NCBI GenBank assembly: GCA_977017645.1
Contig: OZ360222.1
Span: 162,254,001-162,318,000, forward strand
From: Torpedo marmorata
Lineage: Eukaryota
Direction of reading: 5' to 3'
Length of the DNA: 64,000 nucleotides
The notes below the pieces were generated by a model. The model was given only the letters and a program-made list of their open reading frames with translations, ran no database searches and was not told the origin of the DNA. Made by a program: the position numbers and the translations under genes. How positions within the stretch are numbered: the stretch's first letter is position 1; each line of letters starts with the position of its first letter. This document shows positions 7,155-64,000 of this stretch, one piece after another.

Positions 7155-7227
7155 ATTTTCAGGATCCATATGCGGTCGTTGTCCTTCTGGAAAAGAAGTT
7201 GGTAGTTGTAGATCTTGGACAAAATGG
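7155..7227 (+). CDS. STXBP5: Tomosyn-1 exon (DFQDPYAVVVLLEKKLVVVDLGQNG)
   Basis: ctgcag|AT acceptor, GG|gtaaga donor; frame continuous with both flanking exons. Confidence 0.95.
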
Positions 7228-27495: not shown

Positions 27496-27674
27496 ATGCT
27501 TGAAATACGATTGCATTATGAAATAAATATTCTCGAGTCACCAGAGACTGACCAAATACCACCAGTGGGAATTTCATGCCAGGGATCAAATTCTCAGACT
27601 GCAAACTCTCAGTCTCACCCTTCCACAAGCAGCACCTCATCAGATGGCCTCCGCGATAATGTGCCCTGCCTCAA
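27496..27674 (+). CDS. STXBP5: Tomosyn-1 exon (MLEIRLHYEINILESPETDQ…SHPSTSSTSSDGLRDNVPCLK)
   Basis: ttcag|ATG acceptor, AA|gtgagt donor; SHPSTSS.SSDGLRDNVPCLK matches STXBP5. Confidence 0.95.
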
Positions 27675-39577: not shown

Positions 39578-39965
39578 ACTTACCTGCAGCATGTTCCTAA
39601 TTCTCGGTATTAAACGTGGCACGTTACAATGATGAATAGATTTTCTGCTTGGTTAAACCAAACCTTTTGTCCCACAGATCAATTTTTCAGTTTTGTGCAG
39701 GTGATGGGAGTTGCAGTGGTTGGTTCCACATCAAGGTAATTCCTGGTCAAAACCGTTTACCTGTTCCTCGGCTGTTGCCATGAAGTGCGTTGTTCTCTAT
39801 CAATCAATAGAATATATCCATTATCTTTCTCGGCTAATGTATGTGTTTTGAATACACATTCCTGGAAAATACTGTTCGATTTTCAGGGTGGATTGTAGAT
39901 TTCGGTATGTAGAATTTATTTGCAGATGAAAGATAGTGTTTAATGCTATTTTTTTTCTCTTTTAG

Positions 39966-40117
39966 TTTGGTGTTTGGGAACTGTAATGGTATTGCAATGG
40001 TTGATTACATTCAGAAGACTATACTTTTAAACCTGGGCACAATTGAACTATATGGTTCGAATGATCCTTATCAGAGACAACCAAAGTCCCCTCGCAAAAC
40101 TCGACAAGCCTCAGGAG
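39966..40117 (+). CDS. STXBP5: Tomosyn-1 exon (LVFGNCNGIAMVDYIQKTILLNLGTIELYGSNDPYQRQPKSPRKTRQASG)
   Basis: long polypyrimidine tract then tttag|T, G|gtaagc donor; within ORF 39943..40161. Confidence 0.95.
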
Positions 40118-40969
40118 GTAAGCACAGATATTTTCACTTCCCTAATACCTGTAGGAAGTGAAATAGACTTGATATACTCAATGGATATTGCCACAGAATA
40201 CGGAAGATGAAATCTGTAGTGTGAAAGTATCTGTTTGATATCAGTGCAGTTCATGGCCAGCTATAGGAAGGAAAAATGAAGTACAACAGGTGTTACTGCT
40301 GCTAGAGGAACATTTTCCTTTCAAAAGAAAAATTATCATCATTTTGTGAATTGCTCCTTTATATTGATCCTGAGAATTGGTATGATACAATCTGGTCTGT
40401 ACACAGTATCTGTGGCGTAAAGTTTCTCTGGAATGACCCATGAAGTAAAATCAATGGACAAGGAATTGATTGAAAGAGAGCAAGATATCTTAATGATGCA
40501 AGAGAAGCAGGACTGAATTAAATGTCCAGCCTTTTGTTCTGAAGTTTCTAAGATTATGATGTGGCATTAACAATTCAGATTAATATACAAAAAAGTTAAA
40601 CATTGGGATTATAGATGTGGTGAAAATGCCCTAAAATTAGAGGCAGAGAAAATGTCATTGTCCAAACGAGTAGCAAGTGAAATTCAAGAGGTAAAGCTAA
40701 AAGGAAAAAAAAATTACTGGGTGTAATAAATGACCTGCCTGGTGGAATTTTACAATAATCAAAATTAACAGGCTTGTGAGATCGTGGAATAATTGAGAAC
40801 TGGAAAGATGGAATAATTTCTCAAGGTACAAAGTAGAGTATCCCAGAATTTGTGTCAACAGCTGACAATAATGCTCTCCATTGGCCTCATTGAGAGCTTC
40901 GCACAAAGATCAAGCAATTTATGGCGAGAAGGTTTTTTTTTAAGCTGATGCTGTCACACACCAGTTTAG

Positions 40970-41345
40970 TGCAATTCATGCTGTCCAGCAGCTGAACAGC
41001 TGGCCACATTGAACTGTTCCAGTAAAGTTATCACTCAGGCACCTATCTGACCATGTGGAAAATTATTTGGGTAACTCCTAATCATAAAAACTTAGACAAA
41101 TCCAGTTCAACTAATTACCGTGCAGTCAGTTTGCCCTCAATCATTGGTGAAGTGATTAAAAAGTGTTTCCAGCAGTGCCATCGAGCAGCATTTACAGTAC
41201 TTCTCATTTAACTGCTCACCATTGCTCATTTTAAGTTTCACGAAGATCACTCAGCTGTACAGCTCCTCACAGCCTTCGTTCACACATCCCAGAAATGAGA
41301 TGGGAGGGAATACACCTGAAATAAATGCAGCATGGGACACAGTGA
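40970..41345 (+). mobile_element. Old LINE RT fragment (CR1/L2 group)
   Basis: MWKII.VTP.HK…NYRAVSLPSII motif. Confidence 0.55.
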
Positions 41346-42451
41346 GAAGTTGTGAAAAAAATGGACTAAAGCAATGGAGTTCATCAGAAGGGCTGAACTT
41401 GCTGAGACTCCACTGCAAGTCTCTGGGAAGTAGACATTGATCCTATGGCATTTCAGGTGTGCCACAAGCTCGAAGACCTCAATGATTTAAATGGGGTTTC
41501 CAGGCATAGATTGAGGAAGCAACATAAAAGATGAGTTGCTTTTTCAAATTATTCTGTTATATTTAACTGTTTCCAACTTTTTTCACCTCGTTTGTTCATT
41601 TGGAATTTTTTTCGATTTCAATTTGAGTCATTTCCAAATAAATATTAGGCTCAGAGACATTTTTAAAAATATTTAAAATCATTGGCATCCTTGACAGAAG
41701 ACAAATCTCTGCCCCTATCTTTGCTTTCCAACGAGACATTTCTGGAGCCTGCACTTCCTGTAACCCAGTGTTATCTGAACCTCCCCACTGTCCTTCTCCA
41801 TGTGGAGCCAGAGTGTGGGCCCTCAATGCAAGGGGAGCCAGCAATTCCAAGTGGCATGGGATCGGGTCAGCACAATGAGAGCAAATGCCTATTGAAACTT
41901 TCTGGTCCAACATTCTGTGGTCCAGCAATTCCCTTGGTCCAGCATGTTTGGAATCTATATTACAGATCTGAACTACTTCTAAGTAATCTAAAATTAACTA
42001 AGATCTGTACTAACATGGCTAATTAACTCAACAGTGCAACTTTTATCATCTTAGCCAACAGCGTTTCTGATTAACAGAAACTTCGGGGAATGGATAGTTC
42101 TTGGAACCTTTGCATCACCCCAGGAAGTTTCTATATTTGGAAAGAACAGTTCTTCTGCTCAGAGGAAGATGATCAGGCGCAATTTCTGTCGTGGTACCAG
42201 ACTAGAATTTCAACCTGCAGTAACAATTTTAACTTTCTGAACATTATCCAAGGTCTATGCAGTGCTGATTAAGGTTTAAGCTGAAATATAAATATGAATT
42301 TTAATAATGTGTCCATAACTAATGTAATGAAGTGTAGGGTCTTTGTGGATTTTACACTGGCAGAACTAAATGGCATAAATTTGCATGAAATGATTTATTT
42401 TGTTTGTAATGGAGAAATCTGCAAAAAATGCACCATATGGAGGATGCTAAA

Positions 42452-43372
42452 TCATCAGAATCAGAATTTATTGTCATGAACAAGTCATGAAATTCGGTGT
42501 TTTGTGGCAGCATCATAGTGCAATTAACATTCACATTAACCATCTTACGACATTACTATAAAAATTATAAATAATAGTGTACGAAAAGTAAGGCAGTGTC
42601 TTTGGTTCATTGATTATTCAGGAATCTGATGGCAGCGGGGAAGAAGCTGTCCTTGTGCCGTTGAGTGCTCATCTTCAGGCTCCTTTTTCCCGATGGAAGC
42701 AGAGTGAAGAGGGCATGGCCTGGGTGGTGGGGGTCTTTGAGGATAGAGGCTGCTTTTTTAAGACACCGCCTCATGTAGATATCCTTGATGGAGTGAAGTT
42801 TGGTGCCTGTGATGTCACAGGCCGAGCTAACAACCCTCTGGAGTTTACTCTTGTTCTGGGAGTTGGCGCCTCCATACCAGGCAGTGATGCAACCAGCCAG
42901 AATGCTCTCCACGGTACACCTGTAGAAATTTACGAGAGTCTTCGGTGACATACCGAATCTCCTCAGACACCTCACAAAGTATAGCCGCTGACGAGCCTTC
43001 TTTGTGATTGCATCAACGTGGAGACTCCAGGACAGATCCTCTGAGATGTTGACACCCAGGAATTTGAAGTTCTTGACCCTCTCCACTACTGAGCCCTCGA
43101 TGAGGACTGGGTCGTGTTCCCCTGACTTCCTCCTGAAGTCCACAATCATCTCCTTGGTTTTGCTGACGTTGAGCTCAAGGTTGTTGTCGATACACCATTC
43201 AACGAGCTGATCTATCTCCCTCCTGTACGCTTCCTCATTGCCGTTTGTGATTCTGCCGACAACTGTGGTGTCATCGGCAAACTTGTAGATGGCATTGGAA
43301 TTGTGCCTGGCCACACAGTCATGGGTGTATAACGAGTAGAGCAGTGAACTAAGCACGCATCCTTGGGGTGCA
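42452..43372 (-). mobile_element. Young Rex1/Babar LINE 3' fragment
   Basis: uninterrupted 249-aa ORF 42607..43356 (LYSLYTHDC…KFADDTT…KARQRLYF); (attctg)n tail. Confidence 0.92.
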
Positions 43373-44844
43373 ACTTGAAATCATTGGCAGCAACTTGAAA
43401 ATTTTACAAATTAAATTCCGCATGTGGAGAAACTTTGTTACTATCTCACGGAAAAATGACACCTATGTTTGTTCTTCATTATTACCATAAGCTCCAGGCC
43501 AATAGATGTAACTAAAGCTACAGTGGAAAGTTAAATGTAACTTGCTGCAGGTGAATGCTCCACTGTAGGGTATCAATAAACATAATGAATAAAATTATGT
43601 TGTTTTATTCGTTGATTGAATGTATTATTGAGTTTGTGTGGAACAAAAACTCTGCAATATCCTGGATGTGATAGGAACTTAAATACCTAGGTTCAATTTA
43701 AGTCACCCAGGCAGACATTGCAGAGACGTTCTGCAATGCTAATCTGAGCCTTACAATTAAATAGATTGGGGAGTTGAACAAAGGAAACAAAATGGAAATA
43801 GGAAAGAGAAATTATGTCTAAAACATACTTTATTTTAAGCAACAATGTTGGAACAAGGGTCCACAGGTTAAAACCGGTCAAGACTATTAAGTGCTGATGC
43901 CAGGGAAGAATTCTTTGCAGAAAGGTTGGGCAAGACTTGTAATGGATTTAAGTAGGAGATTAGTGATTAACTGAGTCTTGTTCAGGACTGGTGTTTGGGA
44001 GAGTGCGCCAGGTCCAGTGATGGAGCAATGTTTTGGCATTTCAAAAATAAGGTAGGTTTAATTGCACTGAGTTATTTCTATTTGTTTTCTGTTGTACTTA
44101 CAGAATTTTGTTTGAAGAATAATGATAAGAAAATCTATATCTGAGCACACATTTCTTGAAGCCTAGTGTAGCAGTAATCTTATTTGATTTCATCATAATC
44201 CTATAACCACTAAAAATGGAAGGGTTAATGTAATTCTTGAAATCTTTTTGAAAGTTGTACTTAAATGACCCACTTGTTATGTAGAAATCTCATGTTCAAA
44301 AGTGACTTTCAGAATTTTTAAAGTTCAAATTGGTTTCCAACTTCCCAGCCTAATTGTCCTCTCCCAATACAGGACTCTTGGTCGTTGCTATTATAGAGGG
44401 CTTTTGGAAGCAGACATATTTTTAAATGGCCAAACTATAATATCATGAAATCTGCAGCACACTGTTGTTAATTTCATTTTATACTGACTTTCACCTTCTG
44501 TACTCCATAATTTTTACAGCAACTTTCTGAATAACCATGAGTTAGATGGATAGAATGTTTGTTGGCATTTATAATCTTAACTGCCTTACAGCCCTCCAAA
44601 TATCAGCATGTTTGTGTATTTTTGTCAAATGCTCTTTTTCCATAACATATAATTTTCTTATGCATCATGAGTATAGTGTTGAGATCACAAAAAGGTCATG
44701 TGAAAAAGTGATGTCTGCTTTTATTTTCCCATCTTTGTACAGATTGCATTATCTTTTGCTGTGTTCTGAGTTTTGTTCTGCAGGTTTTTACAGCTAAAAG
44801 ATTATTTTGGTGTTGTGCTCTTTCTTTTTCCATTACATCCTAAG

Positions 44845-44928
44845 GCATGCTGACGGTGACTTCTTGCATGTGTGGTCTTTCTAGTTTATATTCTGAGTCT
44901 GTGAAAAGACTTCGTTCTTCATATCTAA
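44845..44928 (+). CDS. STXBP5: Probable alternative cassette exon (GMLTVTSCMCGLSSLYSESVKRLRSSYL)
   Basis: tttctttttccattacatcctaag|GC acceptor, A|gtaagt donor; 84 nt, phase 1-1, no stop; resembles the recalled STXBP5L segment FCMRGLSNFYPDLTKRIRTSYQ at the equivalent position. Confidence 0.75.
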
Positions 44929-45817
44929 GTAAGTTATGATTATACTAATTTCTGTCTTGCTATTTGCTTTCTGATGTTACTAGATAACCTACAAAGCCCC
45001 TTTTTACAATAATACATTGGATGAGTTTTTATGAATATACAGTATTATCTTCATTGATTACATAATGCCTAGACACACTCAAAAGTCATTTTGTCAGTCT
45101 CTGTTGCATGAAAGTGCACTTATAGTAAGCGGTTTTTGAGATGGGCAGCTGACCTTTTGCTGGAGAAAATTTTACTTGACAGAAGAAATGTTCATAGGCC
45201 TTATCACATTGCACCTGGTCTGGTTGACGTCACCCCTGTCTGCATCACACCAGCCACATGCGCTGCAGTGAGTTAGTACCTCCACTGACCTACCAGCTAA
45301 CATTCGGTGTATTCTGTCGTAACATTTTGCTCAGGCTTGTTGATCATTATCATCAACGAAATTGACATATCACTCTAATCTATCATAACTCGCAGAACAA
45401 TGACCAAATGTACAAGTGGACACCCTCAACAGAGCATCAAAAGTTGGACAGTACATTAACATTTTAGCAGGATACATAGTGGCAACTGTACATTGTCAGA
45501 TGCTGATTTTCCCACATTGAAGGGGAATGCTTCATAATACATGAAGTTACTTTGATTCGATAGGAGTTAAACCAGGACAGGTCTGATAGCAGAGTCCAAA
45601 TTGGAAATGATGATAACTTAAATTTCCTTAAAATAGCTTTCTTTTTACATGATCAGAAGGTTAGTCATTTGGTCAATTTTTGACTCGTCCATTCAGAATG
45701 ACAAAGCAACTCACTCCCCTTTCCCATGAAAGGGATCCTGAAATGATTCCACAGTTTTCACCTTCATTATCCGACTAATCATGTACTGATATTTTTTTTT
45801 AAGAACTCTATCTGTAT

Positions 45818-46983
45818 TGTTACGAACTAACAAACCCTGTTAGTACTAACAAAGGAACAGCAATGGAATATGCACCAGACAATGGTAAATTCAAAAATAG
45901 TTTTTATTTAAACTATTAATAACATAACATATCTTACTTATCTCTAAACTTAACTCTAACTTAAACCCCACTATGCGCAAATGTAAATGTGTGTGTGTTA
46001 AAGTTCAAACTATTTCAATTTAAACTTAAATCTGAGAAAGTCAATATTTAAAGTCCAGTTTCCAACTTCTTTTGTTGAACTTCAGGATCCCTTTAAATTG
46101 TGATTCAGAAGTTATTATAAAGCAAGAATGGAATATTCGATTTCTGTCAAACTCACACGTCTGTTGATGAGTAGTCTTTCAGAGATAGTCTTCATACAGG
46201 TTTCCCCCTATCTTGTTAGGGTTACGGAACTGTGATTTTCACAATGATTTCTTTCTTAATCAGGAGTAACATACGGTGACGTCCTCTTTTCTTAGAAACA
46301 ATTTGAAAGTGGTCTTACTTATTTTAAAAGCCACTTATATGGTGTATCTCCTATGATAAGGATAATACACAGAAACAGCACCTCCATTCATTCAGAGATC
46401 ACTGCTCATAAAATGATTCTGCCTTCCAGAATATCAAAGTTCTTCACACCTTAAATCTTTGTTTTTCCAAAGTGTCAGAGTTTCTTCAGTCTGGTGCAGT
46501 CTGGTTCAATCTCAAAATGTCTCTCCTTCAGGAATATATCTCTCTGACATCATGTGACATTACATTACCACAGTTTTAGTTTAATTTTCAAAAGCATTAC
46601 CTCATGCCTTTCTTCAAAATCACTTACATCCACAAAAACATCTGACCTCATCTCTGTCCTAAGATTATAAGTGATTACGACTCCGAATAGTCTGGCACAT
46701 GTCACTCAAATTGCACTTGAATTTGCAACAGCTGCTATCATAAGGCTTTTAAAAACCACACATTGTTCTTAAATCACTTAAATGCACTTCTGTTTCATTA
46801 TTGGCTGTTGTCTTCTTAGACTCGGAGACTGCAAACTGAACTCTCTCTCTCTCTGAGTAATGGGTTTTTCATGCAAATGTGCTGTGACCTGTGTGTGACC
46901 CTGTACCAGCCCACAACTAACCTTACTAAGATATATAATTCTATAATTTAACTTTAAATATTAATATTAACACATCCGTTACA
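45818..46983 (-). mobile_element. Solo LTR (Gypsy- or ERV-type)
   Basis: TGTTACG…CGTTACA termini, 4-bp TSD gtat (45814-45817, 46984-46987), no internal ORF; minus-strand AATAAA near 45905 suggests the orientation. Confidence 0.75.
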
Positions 46984-48889
46984 GTATCTTAAATTTGCCT
47001 TCGACTGGTTTGTACCTGTTCTTTGTTCATAATTTTATAAAAGGAGTATTCCAGAGGAGGTCCATCCCAGAAACTATCCAAAAGTGAAAAGTTGCAGTCA
47101 GAATTTGGAATTATTACTGTTTATATTTGGGATGCTATGAATGTCCTTAAAGATCTAAAAAAAAAAGGTGTCCATGGCATATACCCACATTTAGGGGGTA
47201 AATTGTGCAAAATATCACTTTGATGAAATGAGTATTGCAAGTACAATGGATGTCTGGCAAAACTCTGCAAACCAGACTGATTAACAGTGCTGTTTGGATA
47301 CAAGCACTCTTTATTTTGAAGCTTGCACTGCATTCAGCAACTTCCCTTCCACGGCTTAATGTGCATTCAGCAACTGGAAGGACCCACTCCAGAAATGTTA
47401 TTTAAAGGAGCTCTATAATTTTACGTTAGTTGCAAGTTGATTTCTTCAATGTGTATTGGATGATTTCTGTAGTTTATTTCAAGTTGAAAAAGTTAAAGGT
47501 GGTAGCTGTTGGAGTTTTATGTTGACTTCAAAACTTATGAATTAACTGATTTGAGCATGGCATGGGCATATCACAAGACATTCCACTTGGATACAATATG
47601 AGCAGAGTGCCCACAGAACTAGAAGAGGGAGAAGAGTTCTCAATAGGAAACTATATTTGCTCCTGGTGTTAAAGAAGGATTTTGAGGGTAATCTTGAATC
47701 TCTGCATATATGGCCTGGCTGTGTGCTGCACGGCCTTAGCATGAGTGACAGCAACCTTGGTTAGGTGGCTGACAGGTAATAGAGGGGCAGCCCCACACTG
47801 ACAGGTCTGGGAGGGCATGCATGTTCTTGAGAGGAGCCACATGTTCATGTTCTATGGAACCATGCCAAAGCAGCACTTCAGCATTTATATTTTTGAGATT
47901 CCTGGACCATGTCAACTTCAAGTACCTAAACGTATTCAATTCTACACCATAGATGGCAGAGGCTGAAATTCCATGGCAGCAAGCTGATATTGTTTGATGG
48001 TAGTCTGAGCCTCCACTATGGTAACCTGACATTGAGTGGCTACTGCTTGTCATTGCAGTGGGAATTATCACATTGGCTACCAAGAATTGTTGGTTGGGAT
48101 TGCCATTGAGTTGATGAAATTAGTGATCACTTCCACACTAAAAAAGGATTGGTTCTAACATCTTATTGAAGCCCATGTTGGTGTCAGTAGCCTTCTGTGC
48201 TCCTTGATATTGAATTCAGCAGTTCTGACAGGTTTTCCAATGCACAGTGTTTCATCGTGCATACCCATTGGCTTTACTTTATAGCATGCGCGATGGAAGT
48301 ACTCATCTTAGCCCAATTCAGCAAAACCTTTATCTGGCTTCACCCTCTAAAGCAATGCTGTCCACGTTCTCTTTGTTCCTGCCCTGGCTGCAGACTACTT
48401 GTCTGGTGAGCTCTTTGGGACACATTCAGCCTGGATTCTTTACTCTAAATTACGTGCAGTGTCTGCATCCAAGCCAGTGACTCCATTTGTAAAATTCAGT
48501 GTGTACACCTTTGTTCACCATTGCCAAACCAAGTAGCACTTCTCAGACATCCAGAGGAGAAAGGTGCAGGGTAAGGTTGTGGTGAGGAGAGTGGAGGGAT
48601 GAGTGGGTGAGTATAATGAAGTAAGATGTGAATGCTATCATTCACCAGAGTTGGTGAAGCAGTTGAGGTTGGTGTGAGGAAGAAGATTAGATGTGAGGAA
48701 AATGTTGTCATTCATTGATTCAGCCCCTTATTGGCTGCAGGCTTAGCAATGACTTTTCCAATCAATGACGAGCACACGTTTTTCCTTGCATTTTGGAGCA
48801 AGCAGGCAGACCAGTCCCTCTCCAATTAACTCCTGACATTTACAGTTTTGTTGTCATCTAGTCCTGTAGGAGCAAGAGAAGTGTGTTAT

Positions 48890-50105
48890 TAGTTCAAAGT
48901 TCAAATATATTGTCAGAGTACATACATGATATCACATACAACCCTGAGATTCTTTTTCCTGCAGGCCAGGCAGAGTTTCTATTTAGTGGCAGTGCAAAAA
49001 ACTGTACTCAAGAAAAGATATGTATACAAAAGAGAGAAATATAAAAAAGAAAAAAATGTAAACAAACTGTGCAATGCAGAAAAAATAACCAATAATAAAT
49101 AATGTGCAAAATAAGAGTCCTTAAATGCATCTCTAATTGAGCTTGTTTAGGATTCTGAGGGTGAATAGGTAGCAAATGTTCCTGAACCTGGTGGAACGAG
49201 TCTCATGGCACCTATACCTCTTTGCTGATGACAGCAGCGAGAACAGAGCATGTCCTGGATGGTGTGGATGATTGCTGCTGCTCTCTGAAGACTGCGTTCC
49301 ATGTAGATTTTCTCAATGAAGGGGAGAGATTTGCCTGTGATGTACTGGGCTGTGTCCACTACCTTTTACAGGACTTTCTGCTCAGAGGTATTGGTGCTCA
49401 CATACCAGGCTGTGATGCTGCCGGTCAGCATACTTTCCACTACACATCTGTAGAGGTTTGCCAAGGTTTTCAATATCAATACAAACTCCTGAGTAAGTAG
49501 GAGTAGAGGCGCTGACATGCTTTCTTCACAATGACATTAGTGTGTTGGGTCCAGGAAAGGTCCTCCAAGATAGTGACTCCAAGGAATTTAAATTTGCTCT
49601 CGCTCTCCCTCAGATCCCCAAATGATTACTGGATCTTACACGTCTGTTTTTTCCCTTCCTGAAGTCCACAATTGGCTCCATGGTCTTGGTGACATTAAGT
49701 GCAAGGTTGTTGTTAGTACACCATTCAGCCAACTTTTCAATCTCCCTCCTGTATGCTGACTCATCGCCCCTTTTTGTACAATCCACTACGGTGGTATTGT
49801 CAGCAAATTTGTAGATGGTGTTATTGTCATACTGAGCCACACAGTCATAGGTGTAAAGCGAGTAGAGCAGGGGGCTAAGAATGCAGCCCTGTGGCGCTCC
49901 GGCACTAATGGAGATTGTGGAGGAGATGTTCTTACCAATCCTCACTGATTGTGGTCTGGTGGTGAGGAAATCCAGGATCCAATTACACAGTATTGAGGTC
50001 CAGGTCATGGTGTTTGCTGATCAGTTTTGAGGGGATGACGGTGTTGAATGCCGAACTGTAGTCAATAAACAGCATCCTGATGTATTCGTCTTTGCTGTCC
50101 AGGTA
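48890..50105 (-). mobile_element. Rex1/Babar LINE 3' fragment, same family as 1511-2485
   Basis: [20 protein letters not shown]…KFADNTT in ORF 49610..50008; 3' UTR is the reverse complement of 2230-2485. Confidence 0.9.
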
Positions 50106-51539
50106 TTGTGCAATGTGGCATTCTACGACAGTTGATTAAGTCGCAATAAGAGCAAACTCATATTTAGTGAAATTGTGCGAATATCATTGACAATTAGGTT
50201 TGAGCCCTGATTGATGGAGAGTGTTGGTTGATGAGTGACATAAGTATTTTTAATTGAGCATTGATTGACATTGATGTGCAGTTGGAAGATTGTGTTCACT
50301 AATCACCAGCTTCACATCGCCATCTACCAAAATCATGGATGCTTCAATTAATGGGCAAAGGGGTTTTGTATGACTCACCGAAGGGCATTTGCAGGATCAG
50401 CAATCCGAAAATTCCCCAGGGCTGTGATGTGGATATTCCTGTTGAGCCCCATTAACTAATCTTAATCATTCATGAGGTCATTGAACTTCATGTTAATCAG
50501 ATCACGATGATCTAATTGTAACTTTGACTCTGCATTCAAGTTTACCTTCAGAAATTTCCACCCCTTTTGCTTGTGAAGAATGTTCCAACCTTTGCTTTAA
50601 AAATATTCAAAGACTACTTATTCCTCTTATTGGGAAAGATCTAAAGACACACACCCTTTGGGTCTAGTCTAGCTTCATGGCTATCTTCTTTTTGAGTATG
50701 GGTCTGCAGGATATTATGACATTCTGTGGATGTTTTCAGGGTATTTCTTCAATGCTGCAATTCCTTTGCCTCAAAGCCTTCAGTGCAGCATCTAAAAGCC
50801 TTGGGTTCCACTCTTATCTATATGTAATGTTTCCCTGGTCATATTCATATACTGCGTGACTGCAAGCATTTCCAGCCACAGTCCACCTTGCCCTTCAGCA
50901 ACTCAGGTAGAGTTGGTGCAAGGGCCCCATGCTGAAGAAGTTGAATTGGACATGGATATTATTCAAATTAGTAGCTGCAGAATATATGTATTGTGTTCCC
51001 ATTCTAATTTGAGTAATTCCCATGCCAAATTCAACTTCTTCAGCATGGGGCATGAATTATGATTGTGATGAAATAAAATATGAAATATATGAAACTGCTT
51101 TGAAAAATCCATTATTTTCTATAAAAATCTCAACTTGATGGAAGCATTGCCTAACAACTATCTGATCAAATGTATACTTTTATTGTATAAAATGTATATT
51201 TTAATTTACCAATTAACCATATTCATGGACATGTTTGTTTTGCCATTTCTTCTAGAAACTGCCAAATTTTCAATTATATTCGGAATAGAAAAGAACATCA
51301 ATGGTTTTACAAAGGCCTGAAACAATTTCCAAGGGGCTCAATGAATAGCTGCCATCGCAGATGCAGAGTGCCGGCAATACCTGCCATACATATTTTTGTA
51401 ATACTTGTATTGATGCGCCCTGATTTTTGACCCAAGAATAGGAAAGGAAAGTGTTGGAAAATAACTAACTTTAGATTACTTAAAATTAATCTCATTTCAG
51501 ACGCAAGAATATTTTTGGAATGTATGAAACAGGAGCTAG

Positions 51540-52200
51540 AGTTCCTCAAATGTGCTGATCCAAACTTGGGCACAACACTGCTTTCCCATTCTCTCCACGT
51601 ACTCTTTGATTCCAACTTCCTTGCAATTTAAATGTCTGCTAATCGTTGAAGATGTTCAATATCTTCGACTTTATGGCTCTTTTGGACTTGAGAATTTTAA
51701 AAATTCATGACCCTCTGAGGGAAGAAATCCCTCCTCATTTCTATCTGAATCGGTGATTCTCTTCAATTAAAGCTCTGCCTTCTACTTCGAGATAATCCCT
51801 CTTGGGAAACATCATCTCAGCATCCATCACTCAGAATTTTATGCTTCAATAAGATCACCTCATTCTTTCCTCCAATTAAAATTTGCTTAATGTTTCTTCA
51901 TGTGTCAAATCCTTTATCTCAGGAATCAACCCAGTGAACCTCCTCTACACCAGCACCAATGCAAGCAGATTACTCCTAAAATATGGAAAACAAAACTGTA
52001 CATTGTACTCTATGTGCATTCATTAAAATTGCATAAAAACTTCCTTGCTTTGATGTTCCATAACCCTTGCAATTATACTGATATTTCATTGACCTTCCTA
52101 ATTACATTGTGTAGCTGCATGTTTTTTTTTAATCTTTCTATACTCAGATTCCCAGGACCCTTTCTACTGCCACATTTGGTCGTCTCATTCTGTTTAATTA
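51540..52200 (-). mobile_element. Highly degenerate CR1 3' fragment
   Basis: catgaccctctgagggaagaaatcc and gtgaacctcctctacac (reverse of FFPQRV and VQRRFT motifs). Confidence 0.55.
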
Positions 52201-52566
52201 ATAAAATTAAGTCAATTAAGTTAAGATGCACAATAGGATGAATGTCTTAATGGTAATAAATGGTAATTTTATGGGTTTCTGAGTTTCATATAGTCCAGAT
52301 TGTCACCTCAGTGATCCCACTTCTCGCTCAACATCCTGCCCATTAAGTGGTGTGCATCCCTACTTCATGATCTTGATGTCACTTGTGTAAGTTTCAGAGG
52401 ATCCATTGTTCTGAGAGATTGTTTGCAAAACTTGACGAATAAAAGATACTTTGAAAGAGATGGATTTGAGTGAGTGCTTTGGAGATTAGGCTTGAATGAG
52501 GGAGTTGATATCTAGAAAACTGCCCTTTGGGCCATCTCATGAAGTACAGTAAGTCTCACAACAATA

Positions 52567-52891
52567 CAGGTAGTCCTCGACTTAATTGGGACCAAAGGAT
52601 TGGTCGTAACTTGGATTGGTCATAAGTCGGGTTCACCCTACCGCGCATGTCTTAACGAGGTCTTAAAGCAATTTTTCAAAAGCATTTTCAACAAATGAAC
52701 CTTTAATGAAGAATCTCAACATATATACTGCACAGTACAGTACCTTTAATAAAGATACTCAACATATGAACTTCAAGTAAATACTGTAATAAAGAATCTC
52801 AACATATATACAGTACTTTTAATACAAAAAAAAATTCGGTCGTATGTGCGGGTGGACGTAACTCGCGTAGTCATAAGTCGAGGACTACCTG
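52567..52891. mobile_element. Tigger-like MITE
   Basis: TA|CAGGTAGTCCTCGACTTA … TAAGTCGAGGACTACCTG|TA, perfect 18-bp TIR. Confidence 0.92.
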
Positions 52892-53204
52892 TACTTGGGC
52901 TCCAGAAAGATTGACCAGTAATGCTCTCCATTAGTGTCAGACTTATGAGAAGGGAAACTGAAGTGTTTTACTCAGTATTTGTAGGAAATTTGCTCAAAGG
53001 GACTTGGGTGACTTTTTTCAAGAGATGTAAGAAGCATCTCTTTGGACTCTTACCACCTCCGAATAATGTGTTTCATATGTGTTGGTGTGGTCATCCACAG
53101 ATTTTTCCTTCTGTATTAAAGGCACTAAATATTACATTAATAAATATAAGCTGTCCATTATCATCATTTTGATCAAGTAATCACAAGCTTATTTTCTCTG
53201 CTAG

Positions 53205-53267
53205 GTCTCTGTGATATCAATGAAAGTTCTACAGCTGTGGATGACCGTTGCAAGTCTCCCACATCAG
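53205..53267 (+). CDS. STXBP5: Tomosyn-1 exon (GLCDINESSTAVDDRCKSPTS)
   Basis: ctgctag|GT acceptor, G|gtaagt donor; 63 nt; matches recalled GLCDISEG…DRCKSPTS. Confidence 0.93.
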
Positions 53268-55119
53268 GTAAGTCTGTCAATATGAAAGACTCCAATTCTC
53301 ATGATTGTGTTTTAGGATTTGGGGGCTCAATTTATTTCAGAAGGGTTACTTGCACATGAAATTGATATGAGAATAGCTTGGTCTAACAGTAAGATGTGAA
53401 TGTGGTATGTCTGTTATAAAATCCAGCGATAGGAATAGACCTGGATGATAGATCTCATTGCTCAACATTTTCAAGTGTAACAATGTGCAAAGTTAATGTG
53501 TAGGTAAATTGCATCTTTCCTGCTTCACATCAGTTTGAGTTTATGGTGGTTTTCCCTTAAAGGAAAAAAACTCAAAGCTGTCTGACCATTTTACAGCAGT
53601 GCAATTCAGAATTAGCTCCTCAATTCTGTAATTCAGATGTGTGCCCTCTGATCAAGAAACCAGTGGTGGTTTAAACATTCTTCCAACATCTTGACCAAGC
53701 CCTCGTGCGATGCTGTAACAGCTCATTGCCTAAGGTGTATTGTCAGATCACCATTGTTAATTTGTTAATGCTGCAGACCAGTGTAATGAAATTATATTTA
53801 ATTGGTGCAAAAAGTTGTTTGCAGTATTGTTTACAAAATTATCTGAAATGTGAACCCTTGTTTGTGCAATTAAAATACAGAGGATGTTGTATTGCAGGAG
53901 TTATTGCTCTTTAATATTACAAACAAATAATTTGTGCAGGTGAAGGGAATATCTGAGGCAGTGCATCACTCAAAGTTTTCATTCCAATATAGAATAAGAT
54001 GGAATAAATCTGTGACATGCACTTTCTGCATCATTAATTTGCTAATATGTCATTATCCTGTAAAACACTGTGCAATAAATTAGTTGTTTAAGTTATACTT
54101 CAGATTATGGTTATGTTTTATCATTTTTATCTGATCTACTTATGATAAAGCCTTTGGTTAAATTAGATAGTGCTGGAAAATGGGCACAGAGATCAAAACA
54201 GGCACAGAATTTGTGCTGCAGCCCAATTAATCTGATCTCAGTGATCTGCCAGTTACAGCTGTGTTTTGTGAATGGCTAGCACCCATTTCAACCAATTAAC
54301 CCTGATTAAACTTGGGCTTTCTTGGCTGCAGACAACAACAAACTAACAACACAGGTCCTTGGAGCTTAAAGACTTGACTGTTCAGAGCGAGCAGATCCCC
54401 CCGATTTTAGAACATAGAACATTACTGCACAGTATAAGCCCTTCGGACCACGATGTTATGCCAACCTATGTAAACCTACTCCACAACACTCTTATCCTTC
54501 CGTACCTCACAACCACAACCCTTTATTTTTCTTACATATTTTCCATTGTTGTTCTTGAGACTTTGTCCAGTGTGCTACTCAAACAGCTTCCTTTGGCCTG
54601 GATGATGTCAAGCTCTTTAAGAATTGTTGGAATTGCACTTTCCTGGCAAATGGAAGATAGACAATTGCACTCTTGACACGCCAATAGTTGAAAGACTCTG
54701 GGAATCTGTCAATAAATTTGTCACAGGCCATTCAGCATCTAACCTGCTGTTGCAGTCCCAATAATTTTGCGGCAGATCCAATTGACTTGATGGTCCTTTC
54801 TGAACACAAAGATATTGAAAGGAATTCAGTTACGGTCATCTGGATATTTATTCCAGTACATCTTGAAATGTTGATGTTCCTTATAACATAGGGAGCTGTG
54901 CATTCCTCAGATTTACATGCTTTGTTCTGCCTATTGATCTGTACTGTTGAAGGAGACCCACCTTGACATAGGCTAAGGGTTCAGCGTGCTACACGTTGTA
55001 AAATTTTTATGTCTCCAGTACCAGCTTGGAAAGAACGTGAGCCACGAATATAGAACTATTGCTGAATTTCCAATTGGCATAGTGGTTTTGGGCCTGTTCT
55101 GTAGATGCATCATGTGGTA

Positions 55120-62662: not shown

Positions 62663-63730
62663 GAATCTGAGATGACCTTTGAGATGGACAACTAAAATAG
62701 GCAGCACTTCATTTGAGTAGCTTCAACAGCCTTCATTCTTTGATTCTGAGGTAACCTTTGGTCAAGAAAAGAAAGTTGATTTATTGGCAGATTTATATTT
62801 TAAAAAAATAATTGGTGTTGATTGGCAAATGAATGAGAATTGCTTTCCAGTCACAAATAAATAGATTTATATTGCAGAGGAAAGGTTTTCCCCAATTATA
62901 TTGCAGAAGAAGGGTGTCTCAATTGGTTGCAATGGTTCTGAACAGAATGCAGAGGTCACTGGTTTGATTTAGGGCCTTTGTTGAATAATCGGATCTCAAC
63001 CTGCGTGTAGCCTTCAAATTAACACTCCATTCTTGTGAGCAGACAAAAATTGCTTGTCTACTTTGCACTAAATGTACTTGGGTACAAATATTGGGGAGAC
63101 ATGATGGAACTGACTATTGACCCATTTTTTAATATTTATTGTGCCCTCACTGATGGAGGCATTCATTGTTGAGCCCTTACATAATCTGTGGGTTTGTGGC
63201 CAAGCTTGTAGATGGTGTTTGCAGGACTCCAATTGGTATAAAGACAATGCCTTCAATGTGGTTAAAGTTTCCCATAGCCAGATGTAACCTCAGTGCTTTG
63301 AACACAGTCTTCACTTTGTTCGGTTTTCATGTGTTTCTCTTATACAGGATGGCACTTTTCTGGGAACATTTTTGTACTTTCACTTCAGCAGAAGTTAGTT
63401 TGACGAATAACTGGCCATCGTTCGATATTAGATATCTGCTTTGGATGTGGCTAGGACTGATAATTGAAATGTTCTAAAAGAATACTTTTGTCAGCATTTA
63501 TTGTCCAAAATGCAGAGAGAGAAAGGGGATAGGGAGGGCCCAATTTCTGAATTACTCAAGTGTGTTCGTGTGTGGAGACAAATGGGCATTTTCCAGGAAT
63601 ATTCTGACTAGGAGCTGTTGAAATAAGTTAGTTGTTACACCAAAGACATTCAAATCTGGACTATGTTTGAGGACAATAAAATGTTCATGCCACTTTATTT
63701 TTAATTCTTTGTCAATGTATTCCTGTGTAG

Positions 63731-63790
63731 GTTCTGCCTCTTCGTGCAATTCTGAAGATGAACAGAAATTGCCTAACTTTATAGAAAAGG
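63731..63790 (+). CDS. STXBP5: Tomosyn-1 hypervariable-region exon (GSASSCNSEDEQKLPNFIEK)
   Basis: gtgtag|GT acceptor, G|gtatag donor; 60 nt, phase 1-1; resembles recalled mammalian GSSSPHNSDDEQKMNNFIEK. Confidence 0.88.
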
Positions 63791-64000
63791 GTATAGTATT
63801 ATGGTGCAATATAATTCAGTAATTGTTTTCAAAATTAAATTAATTTTGTTTATTTACATACATATCATTATGCTTTTCTAGTGAAAAACAAAAGCAGAAA
63901 ATTTTCCAAGATCATAGTGTCTGACATAGGTATGGTGGAATAATTCCATATTTAACTAATGCTTTTCTCTCTGAAGCACTAATAAAAAAACAGATGAATA

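What the first reader, a model, noticed from the sequence alone, without database searches (positions are those of the whole stretch)
44845..44928. Hidden tomosyn-2-like cassette exon inside a tomosyn-1 gene
Seen: a clean polypyrimidine/AG acceptor, a consensus GTAAGT donor, and 84 nt that stay open in phase 1-1 between exons 39966-40117 and 53205-53267. Knowledge (recalled): STXBP5L has an alternatively spliced segment FCMRGLSNFYPDLTKRIRTSYQ at exactly this position, while canonical mammalian STXBP5 runs directly from SG into (A)GLCDI. The local peptide SCMCGLSSLYSESVKRLRSSYL aligns to it. Inference: the exon predates the STXBP5/STXBP5L duplication and is retained here. It would add Cys residues and a basic KRLRSS kinase-like site to the hypervariable region.
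Basis: partly seen in the sequence, partly recalled or inferred. Interest (0 to 1): 0.75.

Follow-up and report, generated by a model that had tools for sequence, protein, structure and literature searches.

The report
Ancient optional exon in tomosyn-1
A short optional exon in a ray's tomosyn-1 gene, a brake on vesicle release, is real, is shared from rays to rats and has a counterpart in the sister gene tomosyn-2, but it is already in automated gene catalogues, so it is unstudied rather than hidden.

Summary
The 84-nt exon at 44845-44928 is real. It is open in phase 1-1 with a GTAAGT donor; the acceptor is AAG, not YAG. A 5.9-kb contig from a related organism joins it to both neighbouring exons by GT..AG splices, and two other runs show the skipped form.

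It is not hidden. 31 of 235 fetched STXBP5 proteins, from 13 species (rays, catshark, sturgeon, gar, amphibians, thrush, rat XP_063131071.1), already include it.

Homology to the 72-nt STXBP5L cassette holds. A profile built only from STXBP5L segments hits this exon alone among 3310 window peptides (E 2.5e-8, next 0.93), at the same position and with the same junction codon switch. An origin before the gene duplication is therefore likely, though no lamprey or invertebrate copy was found.

Most likely it toggles a short conserved basic, serine-bearing motif in the disordered regulatory loop, near the known PKA and SUMO sites; this function is inferred. Ten paper searches found no description; the key 2005 isoform paper was not readable. 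The scan had no earlier tomosyn note.

The parts
39966..40117 (+). Upstream flanking exon of STXBP5 (152 nt; last propeller strands before the hypervariable loop)
   Evidence: spliced contigs
44707..44844 (+). Upstream intron flank with polypyrimidine tract and AAG acceptor (AG at 44843-44844); alignable in related organisms; competing out-of-frame CAG with AG at 44782-44783
   Evidence: X2 record 17 (44707-44928: 20 other letters, 3 gaps) and X1 record 7 (44756-44982: 7 other letters, 4 gaps)
44845..44928 (+). The 84-nt phase 1-1 cassette exon; adds 28 codons (P0001 residues 694-720 plus one junction residue); begins with GCATG and holds TGCATG at 44865-44870 (the invariant Cys-Met codons)
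44929..44934 (+). Consensus donor GTAAGT
   Evidence: joint 44928>53205 GT..AG in X19 and X2
45105..45110 (+). Downstream intronic TGCATG (Rbfox-type motif by recall; untested)
53205..53267 (+). Downstream flanking exon (63 nt), counterpart of the STXBP5L exon that follows its cassette
63730..63928 (+). Two further alternative segments of the hypervariable loop (tblastn matches 63730-63789 and 63881-63928; b-tomosyn-type by recall; ends approximate)
   Evidence: present or absent independently of the cassette in gene models

Best explanation
This is a conserved, alternatively spliced, frame-keeping exon of STXBP5 (tomosyn-1) in a ray, and the paralogue of the 72-nt cassette of STXBP5L (tomosyn-2); both most likely descend from one exon in the gene before the duplication. 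SHOWN: it is both included and skipped in related organisms, and its peptide is kept from rays to rat. INFERRED (about 0.5 on its own): inclusion inserts a short linear regulatory module into the disordered hypervariable loop (loop 2). The module has invariant Cys-Met, Leu, Tyr and K-x-x-R-x-S residues and a weak helix, and lies about 30 residues upstream of the PKA site S724 and SUMO site K730 of rat m-tomosyn-1. It would tune how tomosyn-1 is regulated (basophilic phosphorylation or a partner that folds the helix), not whether it binds syntaxin or reaches vesicles. A non-consensus AAG acceptor, conserved flanks and GCATG motifs fit a regulated, often skipped exon.
For: Inclusion: X19 record 9 (5870 nt) covers 39968-40115, then 44843-44928 with 0 differences in adjacent record positions, then the joint 44928>53205 GT..AG; X2 has the same downstream joint. 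Skipping: joint 40115>53203 in X1 and X2. Annotated in 31 of 235 STXBP5-type proteins from 13 species (names). Identity to the window peptide 20-26 of 26, against 39-50 of 50 upstream and 13-20 of 20 downstream (thrush lacks that exon). Paralogy: STXBP5L-only profile E 2.5e-8, next 0.93, among 3310 peptides; STXBP5-only profile hits 3 of 150 representatives, two of them STXBP5L (E 4.6e-10, 6.5e-6), next E 0.2; 0 of 1000 shuffles reach the scores against P0193 and P0220; 11 of 20 core residues identical to mouse STXBP5L. Both paralogues switch Gly to Ser at the downstream junction on inclusion, and STXBP5L isoforms differ by 24 aa (1104 vs 1128). Trees built without the loop put the window in STXBP5 and P0193/P0220 in STXBP5L. 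AlphaFold: residues 682-780 have pLDDT under 50, and the only helix calls in that stretch (705-707, 710-717) fall in the cassette. S724 is the main PKA site (PMC2171531 passages); K730 lies in loop 2 (PMC5529015 passages).
Against: The spliced contigs come from related organisms, not shown to be the window's species, and the RNA label of the runs is a guess or unknown. None of 6 isoforms each of two skates (Amblyraja, Leucoraja) and none of the fetched isoforms of most sharks includes the exon. No lamprey or invertebrate copy among 150 representatives. The helix is low-confidence (block pLDDT 34 and 32), and the hydrophobic moment is not above shuffles (276-829 of 5000 reach it). No phosphorylation or binding data. 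The nucleotide-conservation contrast (pooled 2 of 174 vs 34 of 364, p 1.4e-4) is biased, because those runs were chosen by words from this region. Phase of the STXBP5L exon is inferred from proteins, not seen in DNA.
Confidence: 0.85

Rival explanations
1. The cassette is a membrane-targeting switch: S-palmitoylation of its cysteines plus a basic amphipathic helix tethers this tomosyn-1 isoform to vesicles or the plasma membrane.
For: First Cys invariant in all 16 cassette variants of both paralogues, followed by basic residues; weak helix in the model; tomosyn rides on vesicles without a membrane anchor (PMC5529015).
Against: Hydrophobic moment at 100 degrees not above shuffles in any of 7 variants; deleting loop 2 did not block vesicle targeting of tomosyn-1 (PMC5529015); second Cys absent in STXBP5L and toothfish; the palmitoylation paper search listed 5 of 7 papers, none on tomosyn palmitoylation by title.
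Confidence: 0.15
2. The exon is conserved mainly for RNA-level reasons (splicing-factor sites such as the GCATG motifs) and the peptide is a near-neutral spacer in a disordered loop.
For: Three GCATG within 270 nt from the exon start, reached by 1% of 270-nt windows (window chosen after seeing the motifs); the invariant Cys-Met codons spell TGCATG; intron flanks alignable in relatives; 0-2 nucleotide differences in the exon (biased).
Against: Seven residues are invariant across both paralogues over the whole exon, not only at the motif; the frame is kept in all 13 species plus STXBP5L; STXBP5L tetrapod variants differ at only a few residues.
Confidence: 0.12
3. In this species the exon is a remnant that is rarely or never included.
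For: AAG acceptor and a competing upstream CAG; no inclusion read shown for the window's own species; skate gene models lack it.
Against: Peptide identical (26 of 26) to stingray and catshark annotated isoforms; exon 0 differences from an included copy in X19; splice sites intact.
Confidence: 0.05
4. The likeness to STXBP5L arose after the duplication (gene conversion or exon transfer between paralogues) or by convergence, so the exon need not predate the duplication.
For: No copy found in the one lamprey protein or in invertebrate representatives.
Against: Same position and junction switch in both genes, and a second loop exon is also shared, which fits inheritance of the whole exon array; each paralogue has its own fixed version across tetrapods and fish. 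The lamprey model starts with a few STXBP5L-like residues at that spot and then diverges, so it may be a poor model.
Confidence: 0.04

Closest known systems
Predicted STXBP5 isoforms with this exon, e.g. Hemitrygon akajei X3 (XP_072907564.1), Scyliorhinus canicula X1 (XP_038661079.1), Lepisosteus oculatus X6 (XP_069035128.1), Rattus norvegicus X11 (XP_063131071.1)
   Same: Same exon, same position, same frame; 22-26 of 26 residues identical in these four species (gar measured on isoform X4, P0129).
   Different: Nothing material; rat is one codon shorter. These are automated models, not studied isoforms.
72-nt cassette of STXBP5L / tomosyn-2 (present in mouse isoform m, NP_001108085.1; absent from 1104-aa rodent isoforms)
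   Same: Same position after the SPRK-bearing exon, same Gly/Ser junction switch, 11 of 20 core residues identical, alternatively included.
   Different: Four codons shorter at the 5' end, one Cys instead of two; present in most fetched STXBP5L models (33 of 43) but in few STXBP5 models (31 of 235), though these counts are gene models, not expression.
s-, m- and b-tomosyn-1 splice variants of the hypervariable region (PMC3188574 passages, citing Groffen 2005)
   Same: Alternative exons in the same loop; carry PKA and SUMO sites.
   Different: This exon lies upstream of those segments; the rat residue numbers used by PMC2171531 fit only the form without it, so it is not part of m-tomosyn-1 (hand numbering).
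SLM2/Sam68-repressed Stxbp5l exon (PMC3636136, PMC5397175, PMC7409371 passages)
   Same: Regulated alternative exon of a tomosyn gene.
   Different: That exon is 171 nt, not the 72-nt paralogue of this one.

Membership tests
STXBP5 (tomosyn-1) gene | Exons encode the WD40/Lgl propeller of tomosyn | tested here: met
STXBP5 (tomosyn-1) gene | Groups with STXBP5, not STXBP5L | tested here: met
   quick tree: window nearest Narcine STXBP5, 99% over 287 columns; only 27% of columns filled
STXBP5 (tomosyn-1) gene | C-terminal R-SNARE motif | not testable with these tools
   gene runs past the window end; no genome held
Alternatively spliced cassette exon | AG/GT ends, length 3n, no stop in frame | tested here: met
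Alternatively spliced cassette exon | Transcripts that include it through both junctions | tested here: met
   X19 record 9 (1 of 4 runs shows both junctions; X2 the downstream one); related organisms
Alternatively spliced cassette exon | Transcripts that skip it | tested here: met
   joint 40115>53203 in X1 and X2
Alternatively spliced cassette exon | Inclusion in the window's own species, and tissue pattern | not testable with these tools
   runs are coded, contigs only, no tissue labels
Paralogue of the 72-nt STXBP5L cassette | Sequence similarity beyond chance | tested here: met
Paralogue of the 72-nt STXBP5L cassette | Same position between homologous flanking exons | tested here: met
Paralogue of the 72-nt STXBP5L cassette | Same intron phase (1-1) | tested here: inconclusive
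   inferred from the Gly/Ser switch and 24-aa difference; no STXBP5L DNA seen
Paralogue of the 72-nt STXBP5L cassette | Copy in an outgroup that split before the duplication | tested here: inconclusive
   no hit in lamprey P0211 or invertebrates among 150 representatives; one lamprey model only, long branch near STXBP5L
Poison (NMD) exon | In-frame stop or frameshift on inclusion | tested here: not met
SLM2/Sam68-regulated Stxbp5l exon | 171-nt exon | tested here: not met
   vs 84/72 nt here
Kinase substrate site | Phosphorylation of the cassette serines | not testable with these tools
   only motif conservation seen

The most novel reading that the evidence does not exclude
The tomosyn hypervariable region, titled a 'unique variable domain' in the 2005 isoform paper, is one ancestral array of alternative exons kept by both paralogues with opposite default use. 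This cassette is mostly included in STXBP5L and mostly skipped in STXBP5, while the exon that carries the PKA and SUMO sites of m-tomosyn-1 survives as a little-noticed option in STXBP5L (31 fetched proteins). Mammals would then make an unstudied class of tomosyn-1 isoform with a motif conserved across jawed vertebrates that changes how release is regulated in particular cells.
Probability: 0.5. Interest if true: 0.42.

Novelty: already known. Interest (0 to 1): 0.26.

Why it matters
Tomosyn work uses the s, m and b forms of tomosyn-1. A fourth alternative exon, conserved from rays to rat and shared with tomosyn-2, gives a concrete isoform and a handful of invariant residues to test for how the hypervariable loop regulates exocytosis. 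It is an ordinary kind of object (a conserved cassette exon with a paralogue), already in gene catalogues, so the gain is for tomosyn specialists only.

Tried and rejected
No whole genome was held for the window. Run search: no RNA holder listed on record; 4 of the 22 listed runs were laid, and most of the intron had no cover in them, which says nothing. X5's 143-nt contig fits an inclusion bubble, but no joint for it was among those shown, so it is not counted as a junction. Splice-signal strength as proof: rejected, 7 of 523 candidates pass. Amphipathic helix by hydrophobic moment: not above shuffles. Early idea that the exon excludes the b-type segments: rejected, models combine them freely. 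SLM2/Sam68 control by analogy: rejected, different exon. The first STXBP5 profile held only the rat variant through a pattern error; redone with 9 variants. The first tree is a quick tree in place of an unfinished careful one, dropped the gecko row and over-trimmed the lamprey row; redone without the window row. dN/dS was not run: no orthologous DNA was available. Human and mouse STXBP5 isoforms were not among the named proteins fetched, so nothing is claimed for them. Paper searches listed nothing on this exon; only listings were seen for most, and the library lacks subscription papers; Groffen 2005 was not held. Earlier scan notes: none on this genome, none with STXBP5 or tomosyn.

Full report
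Observation. The window holds the middle of an STXBP5 gene on the + strand, with exon matches from about 600 to 63928. In a quick tree built without the variable loop, the window's exons sit next to the electric ray Narcine STXBP5 (99% over 287 columns). Between exons 39966-40117 and 53205-53267, the segment 44845-44928 is 84 nt, ends in GTAAGT and keeps the frame open in phase 1-1. Its acceptor has 14 of 17 pyrimidines at -20..-4 but A at -3, and a CAG 61 nt upstream would give an early stop. Signals alone are not decisive: 523 frame-keeping candidates exist in this intron, 7 pass a simple filter, 2 of these with a perfect donor.

It is spliced. Of 22 runs listed, 4 were laid on 39900-53350 (assembled contigs; kind guessed or unknown; related organisms). 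In X19, one 5870-nt contig covers 39968-40115 at record positions 1770-1917, then 44843-44928 at 1918-2003 with no difference, and then joins 44928 to 53205 by GT..AG. The two-base offset is the AG shared by both ends, so this is the junction 40117>44845. X2 shows the downstream joint (depth 5.1) and the skip joint (depth 33). X1 shows the skip joint and an unspliced piece. X5 has a 143-nt contig over the exon with 2 differences, but no joint among those shown. So 1 of 4 runs shows both inclusion junctions, 2 of 4 the downstream one, and 2 of 4 skipping. Depths of contigs do not measure inclusion, and tissues are unknown. The intron flanks align too (X2 from 44707; X1 44756-44982). The exon has fewer differences than its neighbours (pooled 2 of 174 vs 34 of 364), but these runs were selected by words from this region, so that contrast is biased.

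It is already annotated. Of the 120 best of 831 relatives of the upstream exon, 8 carry the exon. An exon-centred search passed 9 of 12 candidates and added sturgeon, gar and rat XP_063131071.1. Cluster members added catshark, newt and a second frog. In all, 31 of 235 STXBP5-type proteins with the anchor motif include it, from 13 species: five rays, catshark, sturgeon, gar, two frogs, newt, thrush, rat. A toothfish protein has a diverged copy. These are isoform models, many per species, not independent events. Identity to the window peptide is 20-26 of 26, as high as for the flanking exons. Against: none of six isoforms each of two skates, and none of the fetched isoforms of most sharks, include it; this may be annotation depth or loss. 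No named human or mouse STXBP5 was fetched.

It is the paralogue of the STXBP5L cassette. All 120 listed of 628 hits of that region carry it (119 match the pattern used, one has a Ser-to-Thr change), as expected from the query. Among 43 STXBP5L cluster members 33 have it and 10 lack it, so it is alternative there too, with a 24-residue difference. A profile built from six STXBP5L variants only finds the window's exon as the one hit among 3310 six-frame peptides (E 2.5e-8; next 0.93). The reverse profile from nine STXBP5 variants hits 3 of 150 representatives: toothfish STXBP5, anchovy and squirrel STXBP5L (tree placement). In both genes the residue at the downstream junction is Gly when skipped and Ser when included, which fits an exon ending in A before a GT or GC in phase 1 (shown in DNA for the window, inferred from proteins for STXBP5L). 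Seven residues are invariant in all 16 variants: Cys, Met, Leu, Tyr, Lys, Arg, Ser. Presence in both paralogue clades makes inheritance from the pre-duplication gene the simplest reading. No lamprey or invertebrate copy was detected, so the exon looks vertebrate-specific and is dated only by that argument.

How it probably works. In an AlphaFold model of the stingray isoform P0001 (70-sequence alignment, mean pLDDT 78), residues 682-780 are disordered and the cassette (694-720) holds the only helix calls of that stretch, at low confidence. By hand numbering on the rat sequence, it inserts after G694 of m-tomosyn-1, about 30 residues before S724, the main PKA site that lowers syntaxin binding (PMC2171531, passages), and K730, the SUMO site in loop 2 (PMC5529015, passages). 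All four tomosyn-2 isoforms bind syntaxin-1A and -4 (PMC3188574, passages), and deleting loop 2 does not stop vesicle targeting. The cassette is therefore most likely a tuning module, a basophilic phosphosite or a helix that folds on a partner, and not a core binding or targeting element. This step is inference. The kinase-motif and Rbfox labels are recalled. Three GCATG motifs lie within 270 nt from the exon start (1% of windows, chosen after the fact). The Stxbp5l exon known to be repressed by SLM2 and Sam68 is a different, 171-nt exon (PMC3636136, PMC5397175, PMC7409371, passages).

Novelty. Papers describe three tomosyn-1 isoforms. Ten searches listed no description of this exon or of its paralogy; passages were also read in PMC5061411 and PMC13232099 without a mention; no supplements were read; Groffen 2005 was not held. 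The exon is thus known to annotation pipelines and apparently unstudied. A mirror case adds some interest: the exon with the PKA and SUMO sites has a counterpart in 31 fetched STXBP5L-type proteins, so the variable loop looks like one ancestral exon array. Verdict: a real, deeply conserved, already annotated cassette exon with a true paralogue; interest 0.26.

Noticed in passing
STXBP5L proteins P0213, P0461, P0463, P0485, P0487 and others (31): STXBP5L models from cichlid, Xenopus, turtle, birds and mammals carry a counterpart of the m-tomosyn-1 exon, with the RKLS (PKA-type) and LKxD (SUMO-type) motifs kept: the mirror image of this finding.
   Followed up: partly
window 44707-44844; X2 record 17: The X2 contig is spliced at the donor but runs on into the upstream intron to an AG at 44707-44708, with 74 further letters unplaced: a partly spliced precursor or an upstream acceptor; not resolved.
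   Followed up: no
window 53202-53207: The downstream acceptor is a single TAG here, whereas gar, amphibian, bird and rat models show a one-residue longer alternative at this junction (tandem acceptor), also when the cassette is included.
   Followed up: no
window about 7200-7210 and 27525-27535: Two Asp residues seen in the four shark and ray STXBP5 proteins compared read Lys and Ile in the window: real substitutions or assembly errors.
   Followed up: no
window 42500-43400 and 49170-50110: Two copies of an abundant repeat in the same intron (75-81% alike), covered at high depth by many contigs; probably a retroelement.
   Followed up: no
window 50924-51051: Inverted repeat, 48-nt arms, 90% complementary, 32-nt spacer; possibly a small DNA transposon remnant.
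   Followed up: no
lamprey protein P0211, residues about 250-260: Begins like the STXBP5L cassette for a few residues and then diverges; no significant profile hit. The gene model may be wrong there.
   Followed up: partly
P0114 (thrush) and P0121 (sturgeon): Both are named 'syntaxin-binding protein 5-like' by their sources but group with STXBP5 in the trees.
   Followed up: yes
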